Shown: positions 1 to 10,199 of the stretch, one piece after another
Layout of the letters: each line of letters starts with the position of its first letter
How positions within the stretch are numbered: the stretch's first letter is position 1
From: Nitrosococcus oceani ATCC 19707
GTDB lineage: Bacteria > Pseudomonadota > Gammaproteobacteria > Nitrosococcales > Nitrosococcaceae
Reading direction: 5' to 3'
Assembly (NCBI RefSeq): GCF_000012805.1
Contig: NC_007484.1
Location: forward strand, 630,001 to 662,000
DNA: 32,000 bases
The notes under the pieces: generated by a model
What the model saw: the letters and a program-made list of their open reading frames with translations, nothing else
Told to the model about the DNA's origin: nothing
The model's database searches: none
Position numbers and translations under genes: made by a program

Positions 1-242
1 TCATCCCAGCTCTTGCTGCGCAAAACCCTGTCCTCGGGCAGGCTCAACCGGCTGATCTGTTCCAGCGCCAAAGGGTTTACCTTGCCTGTTGGGCAACTGC
101 CCGCACTGAACCCCTCAAACAACGGCGCGCCCACCGTATTGAAGATGGCCTCGGCCATAATGGAGCGCGCGGAATTACCGGTGCAGAGTACTAGAACTCG
201 CAGGCGCGATGTGGTTGCAGCGTGTTGGGTCGTGCTATTCAT
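1..242 (-). CDS. arsC: arsenate reductase, LMW-phosphatase (thioredoxin-coupled) type; only the N-terminal part is in the window
   Basis: Hand translation of the minus strand from ATG at 242: [80 protein letters not shown]... CTGNSARS is the CX5R P-loop of LMW-PTP-type ArsC. It starts 8 nt after the arsM stop. It is absent from the ORF track because it is open at the window edge. Confidence 0.75.
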
Positions 243-250
243 GGATTTTG

Positions 251-1291
251 CTAACAGCATGGGATTGCCTCTGTCGTTCCTGCCACAGTGTCGAATGGCA
301 TCACTGAACCACAGCCTTCGAACAGACCAAAATGTCGTTTGAAATCGCCGATAAACTGAAAATGCCCAGCAAATCGTGTCTCGTGCAGCATGCGCCAGGT
401 GTTGCCGCACACTGGAAATACCCGACCTGCCGCAATGGCGTGATGCTTATCCAATACGAATTGGTGTGGGCTGTGGGGAATCGTGCCCTGATAAATAACC
501 GCCTGGCCGTAATCCTCACAGGCGCTTTCCAGCCCATCTAGTTTGAATAAACGGTAAGTTGCCGAGAAAAACTGCAGATTGCCGGTTTGTTGAGCCAGAT
601 TCCTGTCAGTCACCTCAAGGGATCGATCCTCGACCAGCCGTGGATCGGCAAAACCCGCGGCATTGGCCAGACGCAGAAAGTCGTTCCAGTACAAGGCGCC
701 ACCCAGACATTCACCATACAATACCGAATTGTTGCGCACGGCATCCGGCACACGGCGGTCGGAGTAGACATCCGAGAAATAGAGTTCACCGCCGGGTTTC
801 AGAAGGCGGTGCACGCCATCCAATACCGCCGCTTTATCCGGTGACAGGTTTACCACGCAGTTGGAGACAATGACATCAAAGGAGCCGGGTTCCAGGTCCA
901 GTTCATCGAGTTTTTCAATATACCCTTTGATAAAGCTCACGTTATCAAAACCGAAGGATTCGGTATGCCAACCCTGATGGGATTGAGCCACCGCCAGTTG
1001 TTCATCAGTCATATCCACGCCGACAACTTTGCCCTCAGGACCAACCAGCTGTGCCAGGGCATACACATCGCGACCCGACCCACAGCCCAGATCCAGCACT
1101 CGGCATCCTTTCAATAAGGGTGGACAAATCAGCCCGCAGCCATAGTAGCGAAATTGAATCTCCGGATGAATCCGCGCCAGTAGAGGCTTCAGCCAATCAG
1201 GCATAGCGCTGGCATCGCAGCAAGCAGTGGTTTTGAGATCGGCGGAACTTTGCAGCTGCTTACCGTAATAATCTTGAACGACGTCGTGCAT
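251..1291 (-). CDS. arsM: arsenite S-adenosylmethionine methyltransferase (ArsM family)
   Basis: Track ORF 251..1306. It has the SAM-binding motif [11 protein letters not shown], an N-terminal Cys pair (TTACCD), YYGCG, and later conserved Cys ([14 protein letters not shown]) typical of ArsM. I place the start at ATG 1291 (MHDVV...) with GGAG 9 nt upstream, because the 1306 start is a TTG. Confidence 0.8.
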
Positions 1292-1306
1292 GATAAAAAA
1301 CTCCAA

Positions 1307-1678
1307 TCAGGATGACTTGACTTTTGGAACCCGTTTAGATTTGCCTATTGCAGATACGCTTTGCCTCCAGGCGAATTGCCGAATCCGCTTAAAATCCAGA
1401 TGATCTCCCTCGTCCTTCCCCTAATAGGCTGCCTGAATAATGCCATTTCTATCTACCAGAAAATTCGCTGGCATGGTGTTCATGTATCCACCAGTAGTGA
1501 TGGGCAAATACCCCTTGCCAAACACAGCATAGAGCAGTGACGGCAAGCGAGGCAACATACCTTTTAGCAGGCCACATCAGGAGTGACGAATGGCATAGCA
1601 TCCGTGAATAATCCCCCCTTCATCAGCCAAAATCGGAAAATGAGCATCATGACGCTGAGCGTAGCGCTGTAATTCAGC
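1307..1678 (-). pseudogene. remnant of a thioredoxin-fold peroxiredoxin-like (AhpC/TSA, PRX-like2 type) gene, lacking its N-terminus and interrupted by two in-frame stops
   Basis: Hand translation: AELQRYAQRHDAHFPILADEGGIIHGCYAIRHS*CGLLKGMLPRLPSLLYAVFGKGYLPITTGGYMNTMPANFLVDRNGIIQAAY*GKDEGDHLDFKRIRQF... The FPILAD..., PANFLVDRNGII and GKDEGDH blocks match the C-terminal half of redoxin-family proteins. The catalytic-Cys N-terminal half is absent, and TGA and TAG stops lie inside. Confidence 0.5.
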
Positions 1679-2323
1679 TCAGCTAATGGCTGTGAAACGT
1701 GGCGCCCAGTTTTCAGGCAAATACTGCAAATCCTGTGGTTCGTCGATGTCATGCAAAGGTGCCAGTTGCTTGAACGTCCAACATTCCGCCAGCATTCGCT
1801 GCCGCGTCAGCCGTGCGACGGCGGTGGAACTCCAGGGCATGTCGCTGAATACCTCGGGAAGGTGCCGATTCAAGCCCAGCAGGGCATAACCACCATCACT
1901 TACTGGTACCATACAGGCATCGTGGCGCTCCAGCGCTTGCGCTGCTTCACGCAGCTTTTTTGCATTCAGGCTGGGGCAATCAGTGCCGATCAAAATAATT
2001 GCTTGCCCGTTATTGGTAATTCGGCGTGTCGCCCTAGCCAGGCGTTCGCCTAAATCTCCTTCGCCCTGTTCGGACCATTCGAGTGAAACGGGTAGCGTTA
2101 ATTCCTTCCAGATCGAATGCAGACGAGTCGGTGACACGCACAGCTCTACTGGTCCGGTATCTGCCAATACCGCCTGTTTGACCGCATGTTCCAGCAGCTT
2201 AACGGCAAGGTGTGCTGAGCCTTCTGCTCCAAGGGCAGGAATCAACCGAGTCTTGGCTAGTCCGGGTAAAGGTGCCTTGGCAAAAATGACTATGCGAATA
2301 GCTCTTTGGGGCATTGTATTCAT
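1679..2323 (-). CDS. DUF2064-type glycosyltransferase-like protein (TIGR04282-like, the rSAM/selenodomain-associated or arsenosugar cluster transferase 1)
   Basis: 214-aa ORF. N-terminus RIVIFAKAPLPGLAKTRLIPALGAEGSA is the DUF2064 signature (AKAP.PG..KTRL). It starts 4 nt after the upstream GT2 gene stop. Confidence 0.7.
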   Translation of the reverse strand: MNTMPQRAIRIVIFAKAPLPGLAKTRLIPALGAEGSAHLAVKLLEHAVKQAVLADTGPVELCVSPTRLHSIWKELTLPVSLEWSEQGEGDLGERLARATRRITNNGQAIILIGTDCPSLNAKKLREAAQALERHDACMVPVSDGGYALLGLNRHLPEVFSDMPWSSTAVARLTRQRMLAECWTFKQLAPLHDIDEPQDLQYLPENWAPRFTAIS

Positions 2324-2327
2324 GGTT

Positions 2328-3077
2328 TCATTGTTTCACCGATTGCTCATAGCGTTTGACTAGCTGTTCAGGCGGCACACCTCGCCAATAGGCCCAGCGT
2401 AGCCGCCACATCAGCCCGATCGTGCGCCAGATTCCTCGTTGTAGCCACCGACGCCCGGATGTAACGACTTTTGCTGAAAGACAGGCAGGGCGTTCAATGC
2501 ACAGCAATCGCTTGGATAGTTCAATGTCTTCCATGAGAGGTTGCTCTGGATAACCCTGTATGTGTTCGAACAAGGTTCTTTCCACAAAAATAGCTTGATC
2601 ACCGGTTGCTATGCCCGTTAACCGGGAACGCCCATTCATAAAAAAGGCCACCATGTTGAGCATCGCCGTATCGCCACTGATGTGGACATCAAAGCGTCCC
2701 CAGCGGCGCTTGTAAATAGCTCGGGAAATGCGCTCCAACCCATCTTTGGGTAAGCGAGTATCCGCATGCAAAAATACCAGAACCGAGCCGTTGGCCTGTG
2801 TCGCACCGGCATTCATTTGCACGGCGCGCCCACGGGCGGAGCGAATAACTTTGAAACCAATGCTTTCAGCCACTTTGGCGGAGCCATCCTGGCTGCCACC
2901 ATCGACCAGTAGCACTTCGCAACCCTGTCGCTGCCAGTACTGTAAATGCGCCAGCAGATCCGGCAGCAACTCAATTTCATTCAACATCGGCACGATGATG
3001 CTGAACGCCGATCGTGAGTGCCACCGCCCCTGGTCAGCGCTTTTGGTTGAGTTGCCAGTCATAATCAAGAAACTCAA
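2328..3077 (-). CDS. family-2 glycosyltransferase (TIGR04283-like, cluster transferase 2)
   Basis: 249-aa ORF. FSIIVPMLNE...VLLVDGGSQDGS...VFLHADTRLP is a GT-A/GT2 fold with a DxD-like motif. The start is ambiguous: TTG 3077 with GGAG 6 nt upstream, or ATG 3062. Confidence 0.7.
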   Translation of the reverse strand: MSFLIMTGNSTKSADQGRWHSRSAFSIIVPMLNEIELLPDLLAHLQYWQRQGCEVLLVDGGSQDGSAKVAESIGFKVIRSARGRAVQMNAGATQANGSVLVFLHADTRLPKDGLERISRAIYKRRWGRFDVHISGDTAMLNMVAFFMNGRSRLTGIATGDQAIFVERTLFEHIQGYPEQPLMEDIELSKRLLCIERPACLSAKVVTSGRRWLQRGIWRTIGLMWRLRWAYWRGVPPEQLVKRYEQSVKQ

Positions 3078-3099
3078 TGTCCACTCCGGCTTCGGTCGC

Positions 3100-3309
3100 T
3101 CAGAAACAAGTTGCTCTGTTCATCAAGCTGCTCACGATCCCGGGCCCTCCCTTTTGATAGTCTACGACCGTGGCAGCCCCACCGTTGACCGGTGATACAT
3201 GCGCCATGAGCAAGTTATTCCAGGTGTTGTGATTGAAACTCTCAGCCCAGGCGGTCTGAAGCGTCAGAATGCTTAGTAGCAGGCCCATCAGCAGGTGATG
3301 TTTTTGCAT
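3100..3309 (-). pseudogene. 69-codon stub resembling the signal peptide plus first conserved block of DUF547 proteins; probably a truncated gene
   Basis: ATG 3309 preceded by GGAGAAGAGG. Translation: MQKHHLLMGLLLSILTLQTAWAESFNHNTWNNLLMAHVSPVNGGAATVVDYQ... (signal peptide, then the F.H..W..LL..HV....VDY pattern), stopping after 69 codons. The core DUF547 domain is missing, and only 22 nt remain before the next gene. Confidence 0.35.
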
Positions 3310-5458
3310 TACCTCTTCTCCATTGGTGATATTTCTCAAGCCAGATAAGAACCCGCTCTGGCGCATGAGCACGTTTCCACTCGCCGGCGGCATATTTGTT
3401 GGCTTCCGCCCAGGTGGGATAGGCGTGGATGGTGCCGAGAATTTTGCTCAGACCAAGCCCATGCTTCATCGCTAGCACGAATTCCGCCATCAGGTCGCCA
3501 CCATGCTTACCGACGATGGTGACACCGAGGATACGGTCCTTGCCGGGTTCGGTGAGTACCTTGACGAATCCATGAGCGGCTCCGTCGGTGATAGCCCGAT
3601 CCAGATCCTCCAGTCCGTAGCGGGTTACCTCAAAAGCAATGCCTTTTTTCTTGGCCTCCTGTTCGTTAAGGCCTACCTGAGCCACTTCAGGATCAATAAA
3701 GGTCGTCCAAGGTATGATGCGATAATCAACCTTGAACCTTTTGAATTGGCTGAACAGGGCGTTGACGGCGGCATACCAGGCTTGGTGAGCGGCAGTATGG
3801 GTGAACTGGTAGGGGCCTGCTACATCGCCGGCGGCGTAAATATTCGGATACAGCGTCTCCAGATAGTCGTTGGTCACGATGGTGCGGTTAGTTTCGATGC
3901 CTAGCTCTTCAAGGCCATACCCCTGCAATCTGGCCACACGGCCCACCGCGCAGAGGAGGGTATCGAATTCAATGATCTTTTCTACGCCTTCGTATTCCAT
4001 AATCAGGCGTTTTGTACCACCTTGCTTTTCACAGCGGAGTGCTTTGTGGTTGGTAAGCACGGCGACACCATCACCTTGCAGCGATGCCTTGGCGAATTCA
4101 GAGACCTCCTCATCCTCACGGATCAGGATACGCGGGGCCATTTCCACCTGAGTTACTTGAGAGCCCAGGCGGGTAAAACTCTGTGCCAGTTCGCATCCAA
4201 TCGGACCACCACCCAACACAACAAGGCGCTTTGGCGCTTCATCCAGTTTGGCAAACTCATCCCATAGGGTATCGCTGGTGACATAGCCCACCTCTTTAAT
4301 ACCGGGTAGAGGGGGAATAAAGGGGCGTGCGCCGGTGGCTAGGACGATGGAACGACTGGTTAATTGTTGCACGGAACCATCATTGCGCTTGATTTCCACA
4401 GTCCAGGGATCGACCAACCTGGCATAACCCTGAATGATCTCCACCCCCAACCCTTCGTACCGCTCGATACTGTCGTGGGGCTCAACCTGACGAATCACCT
4501 CATGGACGCGGGCCATTACTTTGCGGAAGGAAAAATGGGGGGAGGTGGCTTCCAATCCGTAGTGGTCGGCCTGGCGCATCTGGTGTGCCAGCTTGGCGCT
4601 TTTGATCAGTGCCTTACTGGGAACACAGCCATAATTCAAACAGTCACCGCCCATTTTGTGGGCTTCGATCAGTGTGACTTTAGCCTTCACCGCCGCTGCG
4701 ATATAGGCGGTGACCAGGCCGCCAGCACCGGCGCCAATTACGATCAGATTACGATCAAAGTGACTGGGTTTTTGATAGCCTGCATACACACGGCGTGCCT
4801 TAATGACCGCCAGTAGTTTTTTGGCCAGCAGGGGAAAAACACCCAATAATGCAAACGACAGTAGCAGGGACGGCGACAAGATGCCTGATAGGCTGTCCAG
4901 TTGGGCTAACTGCGTGCCAGCATTCACGTAGACCAGCGTGCCAGCCAACATGCCGACCTGACTGACCCAAAAGAAAGTAAGCGCCCGAATGGGAGTGAGC
5001 CCCATCAAGAGATTGATGAGAAAAAACGGAAATACCGGAACCAGGCGCAGGGTGAACAGGTAGAAAGCACCATCCTTTTTGATGCCTTCATTAATGGGTT
5101 TCAGGCGATCACCAAAACGTTTTTGGACGGTGTCATGGAGCAGATACCGGGATATCAAAAAGGCGAGAGTAGCACCGACCGTGCTGGCAAAGGACACAAT
5201 GATCGTTCCCCACAGCAGTCCAAACAAGGCCCCAGCAGCCAATGTCATCACTGCGGCGCCTGGCAGGGAGAGCGCGGTCACCAGCACATACAGCAGTAAA
5301 AAGGCCCCGCCAATCACCATGGGTTGGTCCGTACGCCATGCTTCGAATTGTGCCAGTCCCTGCTTTAGGCCTTCCAGTGTCAGTAGGCGGTCGAGATCGA
5401 AAAAGAAAAAGCCAACGACCAGCGCTGTTATGACCATCAATAAGTATGCTTTCTTCAT
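3242..5458 (-). CDS. fusion protein: N-terminal DedA/TVP38/TMEM64 membrane domain plus C-terminal FAD-dependent class-I pyridine-nucleotide-disulfide oxidoreductase (mercuric/glutathione-reductase-like)
   Basis: 738-aa ORF. Roughly the first 225 aa are multi-span hydrophobic with the SNARE-associated/DedA pattern (...FLISRYL...FTLRLVPVFPF...). Then comes the FAD dinucleotide motif VIGAGAGG, the redox-active pair GGDCLNYGCVPSK (CxxxxC), a second Rossmann motif VVLGGGPIGCE, and an HAYPT dimerisation-domain motif. There is no MerA-type C-terminal CC pair. Confidence 0.8.
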   Translation of the reverse strand: MKKAYLLMVITALVVGFFFFDLDRLLTLEGLKQGLAQFEAWRTDQPMVIGGAFLLLYVLVTALSLPGAAVMTLAAGALFGLLWGTIIVSFASTVGATLAFLISRYLLHDTVQKRFGDRLKPINEGIKKDGAFYLFTLRLVPVFPFFLINLLMGLTPIRALTFFWVSQVGMLAGTLVYVNAGTQLAQLDSLSGILSPSLLLSFALLGVFPLLAKKLLAVIKARRVYAGYQKPSHFDRNLIVIGAGAGGLVTAYIAAAVKAKVTLIEAHKMGGDCLNYGCVPSKALIKSAKLAHQMRQADHYGLEATSPHFSFRKVMARVHEVIRQVEPHDSIERYEGLGVEIIQGYARLVDPWTVEIKRNDGSVQQLTSRSIVLATGARPFIPPLPGIKEVGYVTSDTLWDEFAKLDEAPKRLVVLGGGPIGCELAQSFTRLGSQVTQVEMAPRILIREDEEVSEFAKASLQGDGVAVLTNHKALRCEKQGGTKRLIMEYEGVEKIIEFDTLLCAVGRVARLQGYGLEELGIETNRTIVTNDYLETLYPNIYAAGDVAGPYQFTHTAAHQAWYAAVNALFSQFKRFKVDYRIIPWTTFIDPEVAQVGLNEQEAKKKGIAFEVTRYGLEDLDRAITDGAAHGFVKVLTEPGKDRILGVTIVGKHGGDLMAEFVLAMKHGLGLSKILGTIHAYPTWAEANKYAAGEWKRAHAPERVLIWLEKYHQWRRGNAKTSPADGPATKHSDASDRLG

Positions 5459-5511
5459 TATGGGTATGCTCTGTCGTTGAAATATTTCGTCACAACTAGC
5501 CTTTCAGGTTG

Positions 5512-6465
5512 TTAAAAGGAACCACCACAACTGCTCCCCTGACCAGCGGTGCAGCCATAGCAATGGTCCGCTATACGGATGGGGTAATCGTTCAAGCTCT
5601 CTTCCAGGAGATCCCGTAAGTGCTTGCGTTTTACGCCTCCTAATGGCAGTGCCAATTGTTGATTGAAATCGCAGTCGTATAAGTAGCCCTGCCAATCCAC
5701 GCTCACCAGGGATCGGCACATTACCTGTTCAAGGTTATTTGGCTGGTAGCTGTCTTTCAGCAACTGCATGTAGCCCTGAAATTTTCCTTTGGAAATCAGG
5801 GTAGAACCAAAACGCTTAATGGGCATATTAGCCAACGCATACAATTGGTTGAACTCAATACCAAAGTGCTGGCGCAGCTCGCGTTTGTAATCGGCTTCCA
5901 ATGATTGCTGGTCGGGTGGCAAGGTCGGCCCCTGCGGGTTGTAAACTAGGTTTAGCGCCAGATCGCTGCCTGGCTGTCCGTATCCTAGAGTATTGAGCTT
6001 TTGCAATCCGGCAATGCTTTTATCAAAGACACCTTTACCGCGTTGTTTGTCAACATTTTCCAGGGAGTAGCAGGGCAGTGACGCTACAACCTCCACTTGA
6101 TACTTTGCCAGAAACTCGGCCAAGTTTTCCTGCCCGGGCTCAAACAGAATTGTCAGATTGCACCGGTCAATTACATGTACGCCAGTAGCGCGGGCCTTGG
6201 ATACCAGGTAACGAAAGTCGCTGTGCAGTTCTGGCGCTCCACCGGTCAGATCCAAGGTCTTGATGGGGCGCGATTTAAGTACCGGAAAGATCAATTCTAG
6301 GGTGTCCCGGTCCATCATCTCCTTGCGATTTGGACCCGCGTTGACATGGCAATGCAGGCAGCTTTGGTTGCATTTGTAGCCAAGATTGACTTGCAGGGTC
6401 TCCAGACTTTTTCGCCGAATAGGGGGAAAGTCAGTGACTTCCAAAAGGGGTAAGGTTGCATGCAT
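5512..6465 (-). CDS. arsS: radical SAM / Cys-rich-domain protein of the arsenosugar biosynthesis ArsS family (TIGR04167-like)
   Basis: Track ORF 5512..6543. It has the CX3CX2C motif (KCNQSCLHC) and the C-terminal Cys-rich tail HCYGCTAGQGSSCGG. I prefer ATG 6465 (MHATLPLL...) with GGAG 7 nt upstream over the longer form. Confidence 0.75.
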   Translation of the reverse strand: MHATLPLLEVTDFPPIRRKSLETLQVNLGYKCNQSCLHCHVNAGPNRKEMMDRDTLELIFPVLKSRPIKTLDLTGGAPELHSDFRYLVSKARATGVHVIDRCNLTILFEPGQENLAEFLAKYQVEVVASLPCYSLENVDKQRGKGVFDKSIAGLQKLNTLGYGQPGSDLALNLVYNPQGPTLPPDQQSLEADYKRELRQHFGIEFNQLYALANMPIKRFGSTLISKGKFQGYMQLLKDSYQPNNLEQVMCRSLVSVDWQGYLYDCDFNQQLALPLGGVKRKHLRDLLEESLNDYPIRIADHCYGCTAGQGSSCGGSF

Positions 6466-6548
6466 CGTGATCTCCAGAGTCCGGTTGCATATTTCAGAAT
6501 TTGAACCTTGGTCGTGCCAAATCGTTGATTTCTTACAAGGCATCTTTA

Positions 6549-6562
6549 ATACTAGCTAGTAT
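6549..6562. promoter_or_regulatory. perfect 14-bp palindrome ATACTAGCTAGTAT upstream of arsS; candidate operator
   Basis: Read directly from the sequence. It lies 84-97 nt upstream of the preferred arsS start and abuts a TTGTCA -35-like hexamer on the minus strand. Confidence 0.3.
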
Positions 6563-7379
6563 GACAACCGCCATAGTTGTTTTTTTAATAGGATACTTCA
6601 ACCATGGTGTTATATCCGGTCTTAGCAGCTCCACATCGGTCTATCTATTGTCATCATGACTGGAGCTGGATTATGCGTGTAAGAATCCGCCGCCCCGATG
6701 CGACCAAGGTGTTATTAATGGCTGTTTGTGGGGCTGCCTTGATGAAAACCTGTCACCTGGGAAATAGGCTGTTCGACATCCTGGACAAGTCAAGGAGAAT
6801 TGACTTTCTCGGCTCCCTTGGCGCTACGCATTTATGATGACGCTGCCCGCCGAGTTGGTCGAATTCATGGATGGAGTGGCGTTGGTGCTTGGATTGGATT
6901 TACGCCTGATGGCCATCCCAATGAAGCTCACAATGGCCGTCGGCACCGCTTCACCGGCACCGAGCTACAGTAGCATGGATGACTGGATTGCTCGAAAATT
7001 TCGGACTAGCCCGGCAGCTTCGGGTCAGTGGCATTAGCTAAAAAACAACAGAGGAAACGTTGGAATTAAACATGGATGTTTAATGCCTTCCAGCGAGAGT
7101 GCGAAATGAAGTCGCGCATCGACCCGCCTGCGCCAAGGGCGGTGCGGCAGGCAGGGCGGGAGGACCAGGTTACTTGCGTTTTGCCATGAATTAGCGCTAT
7201 GATTTTCTCGTTGCCACAAGCGCGACCTATCCTCGGGAGGAGGAGAAGTGATGCGCGTGGAGGGTGATACCCAACCGAGGGCCTTGCGCGCTAAGTCGTG
7301 GCCAGCCCGAGGTACCCGTTGAAGCGCGAATTCTCCAGGCGGATGAGGTTTTGTAATAGGAACAAAATCGACATCAGTC

Positions 7380-7560
7380 ATGGCGAAACTCCAATCACTC
7401 GCCGGACACCGCTCCGGAAGCAGCAAAGGCTTGCCTGACGGACGCAAAAAAGCAATTGGGATTCGTTCCTCATCTCTATTTCGTCCCTTGCAATGGTGGC
7501 CGACTACGATCGCTGGTATCCACGAGAAGTCCATGTCACTACGGATCTAGCAATCGCTAA
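7380..7560 (+). pseudogene. N-terminal fragment of a carboxymuconolactone-decarboxylase/AhpD-like (CMD family) gene, frameshifted and truncated
   Basis: ATG 7380 gives MAKLQSLAGH... The +1 frame then reads ...PDTAPEAAKACLTDAKKQLGFVPHLYFV..., matching the CMD-family N-terminal pattern (..AP..A..L....K.LGFVPN.....). No intact continuation exists in any frame. Confidence 0.35.
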
Positions 7561-7748
7561 CCTGGTGAGATAGGCTATTTCTCTTGCGCTAATCCTCAGT
7601 ACTGAACATATAAGCAAAAGGGTAAATATATAATTGAGGCGGATTTACACAGAAACCTTCATTAATCTCCTTAGGTATCCGGGGATTTTAGAATTCAGCA
7701 AAGTATATAATAGCCGACTCTTTTTTATTCAAGCCTTTGCTGTAAGCG

Positions 7749-8954
7749 CTATTTCAGTTCCACCTTGATCCAGCCGGATTTGCGCTGGTCGAAGTTTTGG
7801 TAGGCATCGATTACCGCCGTGAGCGGCTCCTGCTGGGTGAGCACCGCAGCGGGATTGACCACCCCGGTGTGCACCAAGTTGACCAGCATGGGAATATATT
7901 TACGGTGATTGCAATTGCCCATCTTGAGGGTAAGGTTCTTGTTCATCGCCTGACCGATGGGAAAAAAGCGATCATTAGGTGGGTAGACTCCGATAATCGA
8001 TAGGGTGCCCGCTTTAGCCAAGCTTTCAACCGCCCAACGCAAGGCCTGGGAGGGAGCATCTCCAGGATGCCAGTGGCCGCCTTGGGGATGGTTCTCGGGA
8101 GCAATTTCCTTGAGTTCCTGCTCAAATTGCGCCTGTTGCGCATCCGTTTGCTTGGCAGCCGGCCCATGGTGCGGGCGCTCAGCATCCACGCCTACAGCGT
8201 CGATGGCGCGATCCACGCCGATGCCGCCGGTCAAATCCCTGATGGTTGCCACCGGATCCTCGGCGTTGAAGTCGATGATTTCCGCGCCTTGGGTTCGAGC
8301 CATTTCGAGACGGGAAGGCACAGAGTCCACGGCGAGTATTCGTCCGGCGCCCAGTAGCTGCGCGCTGGTAATAACAAACTGTCCTACCGGACCGCAGCCA
8401 AATACAGCCACAGTGTCGCCGGCTTTAATCTCGGCCAATTCAGCGCCAAAATAAGCCGTGGGGAAGATATCGGAAACCAGGATGGCCTCATCGTCGCTGA
8501 CTTCATCGGGCAGTTTTACCAAACCGGCATTGGCAAAAGGAATCCGCGCCTTCTCCGCCTGCAGGCCATGGAAGGGGCCGGAGGCTTTCGGCCCGCCGAA
8601 GAAAGCGGTGCCGGCTAATAAGCCTTGCGGGTTGGCATTGTCGCACTGGGCATGATAGCCCGCACGGCAGTAGGCGCAATAGCCGCAAGCAATGGTGGAG
8701 GGTACAACTACACGATCGCCTTCTTTAAGATTGCGTACACCCTTACCGAGGGCTTCCACCACCCCGACAGCTTCGTGCCCGAGAATAGTGCCGTTTTCCA
8801 TGCCGCCCATGGTGCCGCGCACCATGTGCAGATCGGTGCCACAGATAGCGCTGGCAGTAACCCGTATTACCGCATCGGTCGGGTCTTTGATCTGCGGCTC
8901 CGGTACTTCATCGAGGCGAATATCACCAATCCCGTGAAAAACAACCGCTTTCAT
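7749..8954 (-). CDS. zinc-dependent alcohol dehydrogenase family protein (long form, glutathione-independent formaldehyde-dehydrogenase-like)
   Basis: 401-aa ORF. It has the catalytic-Zn motif ICGTDLH...GHE, structural-Zn cysteines (CGYCAYCRAGYHAQC) and the Rossmann motif VFGCGPVG. AAGGAGG sits upstream of the ATG. Confidence 0.85.
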   Translation of the reverse strand: MKAVVFHGIGDIRLDEVPEPQIKDPTDAVIRVTASAICGTDLHMVRGTMGGMENGTILGHEAVGVVEALGKGVRNLKEGDRVVVPSTIACGYCAYCRAGYHAQCDNANPQGLLAGTAFFGGPKASGPFHGLQAEKARIPFANAGLVKLPDEVSDDEAILVSDIFPTAYFGAELAEIKAGDTVAVFGCGPVGQFVITSAQLLGAGRILAVDSVPSRLEMARTQGAEIIDFNAEDPVATIRDLTGGIGVDRAIDAVGVDAERPHHGPAAKQTDAQQAQFEQELKEIAPENHPQGGHWHPGDAPSQALRWAVESLAKAGTLSIIGVYPPNDRFFPIGQAMNKNLTLKMGNCNHRKYIPMLVNLVHTGVVNPAAVLTQQEPLTAVIDAYQNFDQRKSGWIKVELK

Positions 8955-9341
8955 TTCGGCCTCCTTATGAGCGGGTGAGGTTAAGGGTAACGGGGTAATT
9001 CTGAGCTATAAAAGGTGTGTTCTCTGCACCGGAAGCTAACCAAAATTCCGGTGATAAGCAGGGAACATCACCCTGAAACTCCCTGCCTATGAGATTAGAA
9101 GGCCGGGGTGGTTATGTCTACGATTTCCGCCAAATTTTTTTACTTGCCAGGGACTGGGGCGGCTGGCTTATGGAGAGCTTTAGCGATCTAAAATTTATTT
9201 GCGAACCGCGCGGTGGTTTGGTTATGGCCGCTGAAATAGCGCATTTAGCCTAAATTATTCTGAAGTTTTTGGGATTGGATATAGTTTTTGCCCATACTAT
9301 CCTTATTACATGTTGGTAATAAACGGGTAACTAAGAATCAG

Positions 9342-10199
9342 ATGTCTTATTCTACGATCATTAGTCCCGCTGAGCTTGTCGAGGCTCTCGGTCATCCTAA
9401 CTGGGTTATTTTTGACTGTCGTTTTAATCTTATGGATTCATCAGCTGGCTGGTACGCCTATCAAAAAGGCCATATCCCGGGGGCATATTATGTCCACCTG
9501 GAGGAGGATTTGTCATCTCCGGTAACTCCCGGCAGCGGGCGTCATCCTCTCCCCAAGCCGGAGCAGTTGGCAGATAAATTGGGCGGCTGGGGCGTGGACT
9601 CGACGACCCAGGTTGTCGTTTACGATGATGCTTCGGGTGCCTTTGCGGCACGTTTATGGTGGTTGCTGCGCTGGTTGGGTCATAAAGCTGTAGCTGTTTT
9701 AGATGGGGGAGAGCAACGCTGGCGGGAGGAAGGCTATCCGCTGAATAGGGCAACGCCTGAGCCAGCGCCGGCTTGTTTCGAGGCTCGGCTCCAACCCTCC
9801 ATGACGACTACCGTGGAAGATGTAGAGCATGCCTCGTTGCTTGGATATCTTCTCTTGGATGGACGGGCGCCAGAACGTTTCCGGGGTGACTTTGAGCCTG
9901 TCGATAGGGTTGCTGGCCATATCCCGGGGGCAAAGAACCACCCTTTCCAGCAAAATCTGAATAAGCAGGGAAGATTTCTGCCTTCCCAAGAGCTAGCAGG
10001 CGCTTTCCGAAAGCAGATGGGGGAGGTGCCATCTGCGCAAGTGGTGTGCATGTGCGGGTCCGGTGTCACTGCCTGCCACAATTTGCTGGCCATGGAAATT
10101 GCGGGATTTCAGGGGGCACGGTTATATCCTGGGTCCTGGAGCCAATGGATCACTGATGGAACCCGGCCTGTGGCAATGGGGGATGAAACTCATGATTAA
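9342..10199 (+). CDS. sseA: tandem-rhodanese sulfurtransferase (3-mercaptopyruvate sulfurtransferase type)
   Basis: Track ORF 9288..10199. It has two rhodanese domains and the active-site loop CMCGSGVTAC (CGSGVT is the MST-type loop). The 9288 start is a TTG, so I prefer ATG 9342 (MSYSTIISPAEL...). Confidence 0.7.
   Translation: MSYSTIISPAELVEALGHPNWVIFDCRFNLMDSSAGWYAYQKGHIPGAYYVHLEEDLSSPVTPGSGRHPLPKPEQLADKLGGWGVDSTTQVVVYDDASGAFAARLWWLLRWLGHKAVAVLDGGEQRWREEGYPLNRATPEPAPACFEARLQPSMTTTVEDVEHASLLGYLLLDGRAPERFRGDFEPVDRVAGHIPGAKNHPFQQNLNKQGRFLPSQELAGAFRKQMGEVPSAQVVCMCGSGVTACHNLLAMEIAGFQGARLYPGSWSQWITDGTRPVAMGDETHD

What the first reader, a model, noticed from the sequence alone, without database searches (positions are those of the whole stretch)
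3242..5458. DedA/TVP38 membrane domain fused to a CxxxxC flavoprotein disulfide reductase, embedded in the arsenic cluster
**Seen in sequence:** one 738-aa ORF.
- About 225 aa of multi-span DedA-like membrane domain come first.
- A full class-I pyridine-nucleotide-disulfide oxidoreductase follows: VIGAGAGG, GGDCLNYGCVPSK, a second Rossmann fold and an HAYPT interface domain.
- It lacks the MerA C-terminal Cys pair and NmerA.

**Established knowledge:**
- DedA proteins are implicated in membrane and lipid-linked substrate handling and in selenite or toxic-ion phenotypes.
- Class-I PNDORs reduce disulfides or metal(loid) thiolates.

**Inference:** a membrane-tethered reductase located between arsS and the transferases could reduce a pentavalent arsenical or a thiol-arsenic (or selenium) intermediate at the membrane. 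That function has not been shown for this fusion family.
Basis: partly seen in the sequence, partly recalled or inferred. Interest (0 to 1): 0.6.

Follow-up and report, generated by a model that had tools for sequence, protein, structure and literature searches.

The report
Membrane-anchored MerA-like reductase beside arsS
This intact gene fuses a DedA-type membrane domain to a mercuric-reductase-like flavoenzyme; the uncharacterised family often sits next to the arsenic-sugar gene arsS, but just as often occurs in bacteria with no arsenic genes, so it is probably not an arsenic-only enzyme.

Summary
A 738-aa ORF on the minus strand (3242-5458) joins a YdjX/YdjZ-type (COG0398) DedA/VTT membrane domain to a complete class-I flavoprotein reductase, between arsS and the TIGR04283/TIGR04282 transferases.

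- **Active site.** The catalytic His of lipoamide dehydrogenase and glutathione reductase is an invariant Tyr (Y680, 115/115). With Y334, C273 and C278, that gives three of the four MerA signature features. The C-terminal Cys pair is absent.
- **Two gene contexts.** Among 115 fusion loci, 36 lie next to ArsS and 42 next to orthologues of E. coli ynjBCD/ynjF. No locus has both. The two contexts are interleaved on the protein tree.
- **No arsenic genes needed.** Five Ynj-context genomes have neither ArsS nor ArsM. In 401 sampled genomes, 22 of 47 fusion carriers lack ArsS.
- **The ArsS link is still real.** Adjacency recurs in seven families. Unfused copies of each half lie next to ArsS in 8 of 30 fusion-less ArsS loci.

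Best reading: a cytoplasm-facing two-electron reductase coupled to a membrane translocator, shared by two alternative pathways and serving the arsenosugar-type pathway here. The substrate is unknown.

The architecture is already published (mBio 2023), and this scan found the fusion before on other DNA.

The parts
3242..5458 (-). The whole fusion gene, 738 aa (P0001): a DedA/VTT membrane domain followed by a class-I flavoprotein reductase.
   Evidence: ORF. Pfam and NCBIfam hits. AF2 model with pLDDT 83.6 and pTM 0.74.
4787..5458 (-). Residues 1-224: the COG0398 (YdjX/YdjZ/TVP38-type) DedA domain. It has about six membrane helices and two re-entrant-loop motifs, P66-G-A...G76..F79-G80 and R138..P141..P144-F-F..N149.
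   Evidence: PF09335 at 69-182. 35% identity to E. coli YdjZ. Invariant motifs. Helices in the AF2 model. Basic loops at 104-131 and 213-237 point to the cytoplasm.
3308..4750 (-). Residues 237-717: the cytoplasmic FAD/NAD(P)H reductase. It carries redox Cys273 and Cys278, Tyr334, Tyr680 in place of the catalytic His, Glu685, and a conserved amphipathic C-terminal helix at 701-714.
   Evidence: PF07992 and PF02852. Invariant residues. Alignments to lipoamide dehydrogenases and to a true MerA. Foldseek ranks LipDH and MerA equally close.
3242..3307 (-). Residues 718-738 and the stop codon: a lineage-specific, disordered tail. It arose by read-through into the start of the decayed DUF547 gene, in a different frame.
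   Evidence: pLDDT is about 30. Relatives end at ...WRRG. Sequence.
3100..3309 (-). A 69-codon remnant of the secreted DUF547 gene that follows the fusion in relatives. It keeps the signal peptide and about 90 residues of similarity.
   Evidence: tblastn gives 57% identity to residues 5-95 of a 310-aa DUF547 protein. Sequence. A full-length DUF547 gene is present in 29 of 76 full-flank loci.
5512..6543 (-). arsS, the radical SAM arsenosugar enzyme. It lies directly upstream with a 53-nt gap.
   Evidence: TIGR04167 at 478.5 bits against a cut-off of 300. Gap seen.
2328..3077 (-). The TIGR04283 family-2 glycosyltransferase.
   Evidence: 282 bits against a cut-off of 182.
1679..2323 (-). The TIGR04282 / DUF2064 CofC-like nucleotidyl- or glycosyl-transferase.
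   Evidence: 202 bits against a cut-off of 134.
251..1306 (-). An ArsM-type arsenite methyltransferase.
   Evidence: Methyltransf_31. NF008823 at 176 bits, which is below its cut-off of 263.

Best explanation
**What it is.** The gene encodes an inner-membrane protein. Its N-terminal YdjX/YdjZ-class DedA domain is a putative lipid or small-molecule translocator. It holds a homodimer-type, cytoplasm-facing FAD/NAD(P)H reductase at the membrane.

**The active site.** It is MerA-like rather than lipoamide-dehydrogenase-like. It has the redox Cys pair plus two Tyr residues, and it lacks the acid-base His that disulfide reductases use. I therefore infer that it passes two electrons to a substrate that binds the Cys273/Cys278 thiolates directly. 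Candidates are a thiol-reactive metalloid or chalcogen centre, or an electrophilic head group. A glutathione-type disulfide is less likely.

**How it works with its partners.**
- The DedA domain moves the substrate or product across or within the membrane.
- Conserved periplasmic partners (DUF547, DUF3047) could act on it there.
- The protein is a shared accessory of two alternative input pathways.
  - In one, ArsM and ArsS plus the TIGR04282/TIGR04283 transferases build the compound inside the cell.
  - In the other, a YnjBCD ABC importer plus the YnjF CDP-alcohol phosphatidyltransferase handle an imported compound.
- In this window it serves the first pathway, in a trimmed form: DUF547 has decayed, and DUF3047 and TIGR03169 are absent.

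**Shown.** Architecture, active-site residues, cytoplasmic orientation by charge, the two gene contexts and their interleaving on the tree.

**Inferred.** The nature of the substrate, the coupling of reduction to translocation, and the role of the periplasmic partners.
For: - Domains and motifs.
- Tyr680 is invariant (115/115). It aligns with E. coli-type LipDH H-x-H-P-T and with the MerA motif P-Y-L-T. Y334 aligns with MerA 'KYEGIL'.
- MerA criteria come from PMC8261052.
- Orientation: the basic loops at 104-131 and 213-237 and the acidic or neutral loops at 21-46 and 181-196 place the reductase in the cytoplasm. The AF2 model has pTM 0.74.
- Contexts: ArsS in 36 loci, Ynj in 42, both in 0. 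DUF547, DUF3047 and TIGR03169 occur in both contexts.
- The Ynj genes are true orthologues of the E. coli genes: YnjB 42-51% identity and YnjF 50-58%. E. coli itself links the COG0398 DedA genes ydjX and ydjZ with ynjA-F.
- The tree shows at least 6 ArsS/Ynj switches, and L044 (Ynj) and L057 (ArsS) are near-identical sisters.
- Unfused DedA or an unfused PNDOR of the same Tyr subtype lies next to ArsS in 8 of 30 fusion-less ArsS loci examined.
- DUF547 and DUF3047 carry signal peptides.
- A second DedA fusion in this genome is joined to a phospholipase-D-like enzyme, which fits a lipid head-group theme.
Against: - No biochemical or genetic data exist for any member.
- The DedA domain has no Cys, so no electron relay through the membrane is possible. 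Coupling of reduction to transport is pure inference.
- 16 of 76 full-flank loci show none of the partner genes.
- 133 of 158 ArsS genomes in the sample lack the fusion, so neither pathway strictly needs it.
- Tyr at the His position does not by itself prove a non-disulfide substrate.
- The monomer AF2 model cannot show the dimeric active site or its distance from the DedA cavity.
Confidence: 0.45

Rival explanations
1. The protein is a dedicated membrane-tethered arsenical reductase. It reduces pentavalent methylarsenicals, such as DMAs(V), or As-thiol adducts, so that ArsS receives trivalent DMAs(III).
For: - The gene lies directly downstream of arsS here, and next to ArsS in 36 of 115 loci and in seven families of the phylum sample.
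- Unfused PNDOR of the same subtype, or unfused DedA, flanks ArsS in other lineages.
- The MerA-like Tyr/Cys active site suits a soft metal(loid).
- The genome has a separate true MerA, so mercury is already covered.
Against: - 42 of 115 loci have ynjBCD/ynjF and no ArsS.
- 22 of 47 fusion genomes lack ArsS.
- Five Ynj-context genomes lack both ArsS and ArsM.
- Orthologues more than 90% identical sit in either context.
- 84% of the ArsS genomes sampled have no fusion.
Confidence: 0.2
2. The protein is a general envelope or lipid homeostasis factor. A COG0398 DedA phospholipid scramblase carries its own reductase, for example for quinones, lipid-derived oxidants or membrane thiol stress. It is merely co-located with stress or detoxification islands, without a shared substrate.
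For: - COG0398 DedAs are proposed to be phospholipid scramblases, and PF07992/PF02852 is their commonest fusion partner (PMC10127716).
- 16 of 76 full-flank loci have no partner genes.
- MerA, glutathione-reductase-like and bufferin-type (MbnB/DUF2063) genes are frequent neighbours.
- The same genome has a PLD-DedA fusion.
Against: - Specific partners (DUF547, DUF3047, TIGR03169, the transferase pair, YnjBCDF, ArsS) recur across classes.
- The DedA-YnjBCDF link is conserved as far as E. coli.
- Both points argue for a defined pathway.
Confidence: 0.2
3. The protein handles selenium. The DedA domain takes up selenite and the flavoprotein reduces it. This would feed SelD-linked functions, since ArsS is often a selenoprotein.
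For: - The frequent neighbour TIGR03169 is the PNDOR family that is fused to SelD in other organisms.
- A DedA protein has been linked to selenite resistance. That reference is cited in PMC10127716.
- NCBIfam lists selenoprotein forms of ArsS and ArsM.
Against: - This genome has no SelD above cut-off.
- Its ArsS has no in-frame TGA.
- TIGR03169 is absent from this genome.
Confidence: 0.07

Closest known systems
COG0398 DedA proteins fused to PF07992/PF02852. RefSeq and GenBank call members of this family 'FAD-dependent oxidoreductase' or 'mercuric reductase'. Todor et al., mBio 2023 (PMC10127716), report this as the commonest COG0398 fusion.
   Same: The architecture is identical. Hundreds of members share 50-87% identity across Gamma-, Beta-, Alpha- and Zetaproteobacteria and Nitrospinae.
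   Different: Nothing differs in kind; this is one more member. The N. oceani-type copy has a 21-residue disordered tail, and its downstream DUF547 gene has decayed.
Mercuric reductase MerA (TIGR02053; Tn501 and Bacillus RC607).
   Same: - The fold is the same.
- It shares the redox CxxxxC pair.
- It has Tyr at both MerA signature positions (Y334 and Y680).
- It has Glu five residues after the Tyr.

   Different: - It has no vicinal C-terminal Cys pair and no NmerA domain.
- It scores below the MerA cut-off (370 against 454 bits).
- A conserved amphipathic C-terminal helix stands where MerA has its Cys tail.
- It has an N-terminal membrane domain.
- A genuine MerA exists elsewhere in this genome.

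Dihydrolipoamide dehydrogenase and glutathione reductase (class-I disulfide reductases).
   Same: It is about 35% identical to LipDH (2eq6). It has the same three-domain layout and the VEM motif after the NAD-binding strand.
   Different: - The catalytic His (E. coli Lpd His444 by my recollection of the numbering) is Tyr in all 115 members.
- It scores below the LipDH cut-off (391 against 409 bits).

The E. coli ydjX-ydjY-ydjZ-ynjA-ynjB-ynjC-ynjD-ynjE / ynjF locus, whose function is unknown.
   Same: It shows the same linkage of COG0398 DedA genes with the YnjBCD ABC importer and the YnjF CDP-alcohol phosphatidyltransferase that is seen in 42 of 115 fusion loci.
   Different: - In E. coli the DedA proteins are unfused.
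- The redox partners there are YnjA (AhpD-like) and YdjY, not a flavoprotein.
- This window has no ynjBCD or ynjF.
The cyanobacterial ArsM-ArsS arsenosugar pathway. The attribution to Synechocystis and Xue et al. 2019 is from my own knowledge; I did not read that paper here.
   Same: ArsM and ArsS are present and adjacent.
   Different: I found no paper that assigns a DedA-reductase fusion to that pathway. The role of the fusion and of the two transferases is inferred from neighbourhood alone.

Membership tests
DedA superfamily, COG0398 / VTT domain (PF09335) | A match to the VTT/DedA profile above the gathering score. | tested here: met
   PF09335 at 86.3 bits against a cut-off of 33.9, residues 69-182.
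DedA superfamily, COG0398 / VTT domain (PF09335) | It belongs to the YdjX/YdjZ (COG0398) branch rather than the YqjA/YghB (COG0586) branch. | tested here: inconclusive
   The best E. coli match is YdjZ, at 35% identity over 133 residues. The PF07992 fusion is described for COG0398. I did not build a tree against COG0586 or COG1238.
Class-I pyridine nucleotide-disulfide oxidoreductases | FAD and NAD(P)H Rossmann domains, an interface domain and a redox-active CxxxxC pair. | tested here: met
   PF07992, PF00070 and PF02852 all match. C273 and C278 are invariant.
Class-I pyridine nucleotide-disulfide oxidoreductases | The His-Glu acid-base dyad of true disulfide reductases (H-P-T-x-x-E). | tested here: not met
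   The motif reads Y680-P-T-W-A-E685. Tyr is invariant in 115/115 members and Glu is kept.
Mercuric reductase MerA | A redox-active Cys pair (207/212 in RC607 numbering). | tested here: met
   C273 and C278. The criterion comes from PMC8261052.
Mercuric reductase MerA | Tyr264 and Tyr605 (RC607 numbering). | tested here: met
   Y334 aligns with the MerA motif KYEGIL, and Y680 with PYLTMVE. I mapped the numbering by offset from the Cys pair, which is inference.
Mercuric reductase MerA | A vicinal Cys pair at the C-terminus. | tested here: not met
   There is no Cys after residue 503. The family ends ...WLEKYHxWRRG.
Mercuric reductase MerA | A score above the TIGR02053 cut-off. | tested here: not met
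   370.1 bits against 454.45.
Dihydrolipoyl dehydrogenase (TIGR01350) | A score above the cut-off and the catalytic His. | tested here: not met
   390.9 bits against 408.8. The His is replaced by Tyr.
NF004991 (PRK06370.1-3) 'FAD-containing oxidoreductase' subfamily | A score above the curated cut-off. | tested here: not met
   484 bits against 620. It is the best-scoring NCBIfam model but falls below threshold.
Arsenosugar (ArsS-centred) gene cassette | The gene is an obligate, ArsS-dependent component of the cassette. | tested here: not met
   - 22 of 47 fusion genomes lack ArsS.
- 133 of 158 ArsS genomes lack the fusion.
- 42 of 115 loci are in the Ynj context.

Arsenosugar (ArsS-centred) gene cassette | Adjacency to ArsS recurs beyond chance. 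| tested here: met
   Ten of 25 co-occurring genomes have the two genes within 10 kb, in seven families. By my rough estimate chance would give about 0.15. 36 of 115 loci have ArsS nearby.

The most novel reading that the evidence does not exclude
The fusion, with the secreted DUF547 and DUF3047 proteins and the TIGR03169 flavoprotein, is the core of an undescribed envelope pathway.
- The pathway would reduce a metalloid- or chalcogen-bearing sugar or alcohol head group and translocate it.
- It would then attach that group to a lipid or carrier: by YnjF where the compound is imported by YnjBCD, or by TIGR04282/TIGR04283 where it is made by ArsM and ArsS.
- That would amount to a bacterial route to arsenosugar-type (phospho)lipids.
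- It would also give the E. coli ydjXYZ-ynjABCDEF locus its first function.
Probability: 0.12. Interest if true: 0.8.

Novelty: new member of a known kind. Interest (0 to 1): 0.45.

Why it matters
- The family is large and strongly conserved: 70-87% identity across bacterial classes. No member has been characterised.
- Two leads make it testable.
  - The His-to-Tyr, MerA-like active site predicts a substrate that is not a disulfide.
  - The alternation between ArsS/ArsM and YnjBCD/YnjF contexts ties it to the unexplained late steps of bacterial arsenosugar-type metabolism. It also ties it to an E. coli locus of unknown function, ydjXYZ-ynjABCDEF, where genetics is easy.
- The data also caution against reading the NCBIfam names 'arsenosugar biosynthesis glycosyltransferase' (TIGR04282/TIGR04283) as arsenic-specific. 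That pair also occurs with YnjBCD in genomes where ArsS was not found.

Tried and rejected
- **Frameshift artefact.** Rejected: the fused ORF is intact in more than 110 genomes.
- **True MerA.** Rejected: there is no C-terminal Cys pair, the score is below cut-off, and a genuine MerA lies elsewhere in the genome.
- **True lipoamide dehydrogenase or glutathione reductase.** Rejected: the catalytic His is missing.
- **Selenium role in this genome.** Weakened: no SelD.
- **Electron relay through the membrane, DsbD-like.** Rejected: the DedA domain has no Cys.
- **Promoter and terminator scan of 1-7800.** It found nothing above chance.
- **RNA evidence.** No RNA holder was listed.
- **Literature.** Searches for ynj/ydj function, a DedA-MerA fusion and arsenosugar-cluster partners found no functional study. 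The Synechocystis MerA-like paper (PMC3754753) is not held.
- **ESM Atlas search with DUF547.** It returned only DUF547 clusters.
- **Foldseek.** It cannot separate LipDH from MerA as the nearest fold.
- **Coenzyme preference.** Undecided: Glu439 is LipDH/NADH-like, while R443 and R447 are GR/MerA-like.
Full report
**1. Observation**

The ORF at 3242-5458 is real. It lies on the minus strand and encodes 738 residues without a stop.

- Pfam finds a VTT/DedA domain (69-182), Pyr_redox_2 (237-560), Pyr_redox (411-482) and the dimerisation domain (582-690).
- The best NCBIfam models all score below their curated cut-offs: NF004991 'FAD-containing oxidoreductase' (484 against 620), lipoamide dehydrogenase (391 against 409) and MerA (370 against 454).
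- The neighbours on the same strand are ArsS (TIGR04167, 478 bits), TIGR04283, TIGR04282 and an ArsM-type methyltransferase.
- ArsS ends 53 nt before the fusion's ATG.
- The fused reading frame is intact in more than 110 other genomes, so it is not a sequencing artefact.

**2. Anatomy**

*Model and topology.* An AlphaFold2 model built on 48 diverse family members has mean pLDDT 83.6 and pTM 0.74.
- Residues 2-224 are helical, with helices at 2-19, 28-44, 46-62, 68-106, 108-129, 131-139, 145-152, 159-185 and 196-224.
- Loop charges follow the positive-inside rule. Loops 104-131 and 213-237 carry seven basic residues each. Loops 21-46 and 181-196 are acidic or neutral.
- The flavoprotein, which begins at 237, is therefore cytoplasmic, as its need for NAD(P)H requires.

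*Invariant positions.* The family is invariant at P66-G67-A68, G76, F79-G80, R138, P141, P144-F145-F146 and N149 in the membrane domain. In the reductase it is invariant at C273, C278, H678, Y680 and E685, and Y334 is nearly invariant, conserved in at least 90% of the 48 diverse members and at least 98% of the 115. The membrane domain contains no cysteine, so it cannot relay electrons.

*C-terminus.* Residues 718-738 are disordered and specific to this lineage. They arise because the frame reads on into the start of a decayed DUF547 gene.

**3.

- 'HAYPT' aligns with H-A-H-P-T of lipoamide dehydrogenases. The acid-base His is therefore replaced by Tyr680, in 115 of 115 family members.
- Against a genuine MerA (L035, NF010311 at 949 bits), Tyr680 aligns with the Tyr of P-Y-L-T-M-V-E, and Tyr334 with the Tyr of K-Y-E-G-I-L.
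- Christakis et al. (PMC8261052) define MerA by the redox Cys pair, Tyr264, Tyr605 and the vicinal C-terminal Cys pair. The fusion meets the first three and fails the last.
- Where MerA has its Cys tail, the family carries a conserved amphipathic helix (701-714, pLDDT about 90).
- Foldseek ranks LipDH and MerA structures equally.
- The genome has its own MerA ending SCCAG.

**4. Distribution and gene context**

*Conservation.* The family is very conserved: 70-87% identity to relatives in Gamma-, Beta-, Alpha- and Zetaproteobacteria and Nitrospinae.

*Two contexts.* I collected 115 full-length fusion loci. Within ±11 kb:
- 36 have ArsS.
- 42 have orthologues of E. coli YnjB, YnjC or YnjF.
- None has both.
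- 10 have only the transferase pair.
- 16 have none of the markers.

*Partners.* Among the 76 loci with at least 6 kb on both sides:
- The TIGR04283/TIGR04282 pair accompanies ArsS in 17 of 18 loci, and the Ynj set in 5 of 33.
- YnjF accompanies the Ynj set in 27 of 33 loci, and ArsS in 0 of 18.
- DUF547, DUF3047 and the TIGR03169 flavoprotein ('N-terminal to SelD') occur in both contexts.
- DUF547 and DUF3047 carry signal peptides.

*Link to E. coli.* The Ynj genes are true orthologues: YnjB 42-51%, YnjD about 50% and YnjF 50-58% identity. E. coli K-12 itself places its two COG0398 DedA genes, ydjX and ydjZ, in one block with ynjA-ynjE and ynjF. The DedA-Ynj linkage is therefore old and independent of the fusion.

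*Tree.* On a tree of the 115 proteins the ArsS and Ynj contexts are interleaved, with at least six switches. L044 (Ynj) and L057 (ArsS) are sisters with branch lengths up to 0.06. The same orthologue therefore serves both contexts.

**5.

In 401 genomes drawn across the phylum:
- ArsS is present in 158.
- The fused protein is present in 47, after removing two unfused hits.
- Both are present in 25.
- The fusion occurs without ArsS in 22, and ArsS without the fusion in 133.

Of the 25 genomes with both, the two genes lie within 10 kb in 10, spread over seven families. By my rough estimate chance would give about 0.15. Five Ynj-context genomes have no ArsS above cut-off and no ArsM-type match at E ≤ 1e-20.

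The link to ArsS is therefore real but facultative. The protein works in cells that can neither methylate nor adenosylate arsenic.

**6. Split forms**

I examined 30 ArsS loci from genomes without the fusion.
- Five have a standalone class-I reductase next to ArsS, and three have a standalone DedA protein 56-58% identical to the fusion's membrane domain.
- The standalone reductases share the fusion's signatures: GGDCLNxGCVPSK, P-Y-P-T..E, no Cys tail and an amphipathic C-terminal helix.
- A search of 1.84 billion cluster representatives with the DedA domain alone returns a mixture of fused (about 700 aa) and free (about 230 aa) close relatives.

This is Rosetta-stone evidence that the two halves work together, and that each is tied to ArsS in some lineages.

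**7. This genome's version**

- The window has a trimmed cassette. DUF547 survives only as a 69-codon stub (window 3100-3309).
- DUF3047, TIGR03169, YnjB and YnjC are not found anywhere in the genome.
- There is no SelD. Together with an ArsS that has no in-frame TGA, this weakens a selenium reading here.
- Elsewhere, the genome encodes a phospholipase-D-like protein fused to another COG0398 DedA domain. That fits a lipid head-group theme for this DedA class.

**8. Interpretation**

*Shown.* A cytoplasm-facing, MerA-like two-electron flavoprotein is tethered to a YdjX/YdjZ-class DedA domain. The family is a shared accessory of two mutually exclusive gene sets.

*Inferred.*
- The missing acid-base His points to a substrate that binds the active-site thiolates directly, rather than a disulfide that needs protonation.
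- The DedA domain moves that compound or its product at the membrane, where the secreted DUF547 and DUF3047 proteins could act on it.
- ArsM and ArsS with the transferase pair, or YnjBCD with YnjF, are alternative ways of supplying and attaching the compound.

I put this at 0.45. The remainder is unassigned.

**9. Novelty**

- The architecture is already in the literature as the commonest COG0398 fusion (PMC10127716).
- It is routinely annotated, under names such as 'FAD-dependent oxidoreductase' and 'mercuric reductase'.
- This scan has met it on other DNA. Earlier follow-ups e1-2573393, e1-4613911 and e1-5275022 reached compatible conclusions.
- I found no experimental study.
- This copy is a new member of a known but uncharacterised kind. 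The Tyr-for-His signature and the quantified ArsS/Ynj alternation are the useful additions.

Noticed in passing
window 3100-3309 (-): A 69-codon stub of the secreted DUF547 gene. It keeps the signal peptide and shows 57% identity to residues 5-95 of a 310-aa relative. Relatives have a full DUF547 gene translationally coupled to the fusion.
   Followed up: yes
G000:C1:2188359-2190503 (+), outside the window: A second DedA fusion in the same genome: a phospholipase-D / cardiolipin-synthase-like protein with two HKD motifs and a C-terminal COG0398 DedA domain. I read it by eye from the translation and did not run Pfam on it.
   Followed up: partly
G000:C1:3130494-3131834 (-), outside the window: A genuine MerA (GGTCVNTGCVPSK, PYLTMVE, C-terminal SCCAG) in a 492-aa frame. 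The genome's mercury reductase is therefore a different gene.
   Followed up: partly
window 9288-10199 (+): A two-domain rhodanese (3-mercaptopyruvate sulfurtransferase-like). It is 28% identical to the C-terminal two rhodanese domains of E. coli YnjE, the sulfurtransferase of the ydj/ynj locus. The similarity is weak and may be coincidental.
   Followed up: partly
L033:7578-8885 (-), also L045, L046, L058, L068, L078: TIGR04283 and TIGR04282 are fused into one 435-aa protein, transcribed divergently from the DedA-reductase gene. ArsS is absent from these loci, so the 'arsenosugar' transferase pair is not arsenic-specific.
   Followed up: partly
L099 and L117 (G084, G267): The gene order is TIGR03169 ... 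fusion - TIGR04282 - TIGR04283 - YnjD - YnjC - YnjB, in genomes where the phylum search found no ArsS. This is a hybrid of the two contexts.
   Followed up: no
L038:15095-16462, L040:3858-5219, L052:13634-14992: A glutathione-reductase-type PNDOR (GGTCVNLGCIPKK, IHPT..EE) lies between the arsenosugar-type genes and ArsM in several Burkholderiales loci. L035 and L119 carry a full MerA there instead.
   Followed up: no
L014-L016, L019, L027, L035, L047, L048, L050, L051, L055, L056: Pairs of MbnB/TglH/ChrH (PF05114) and DUF2063 genes, typical of copper-binding RiPP (bufferin-type) clusters, lie within a few kb of the fusion in many Betaproteobacteria. This suggests a metal-stress island setting.
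   Followed up: no
L127:8281-9366 (+): In an ArsS-plus-standalone-DedA locus, the gene upstream of ArsS is a beta-carbonic anhydrase fused to an NTF2-like (Cds6_C) domain.
   Followed up: no
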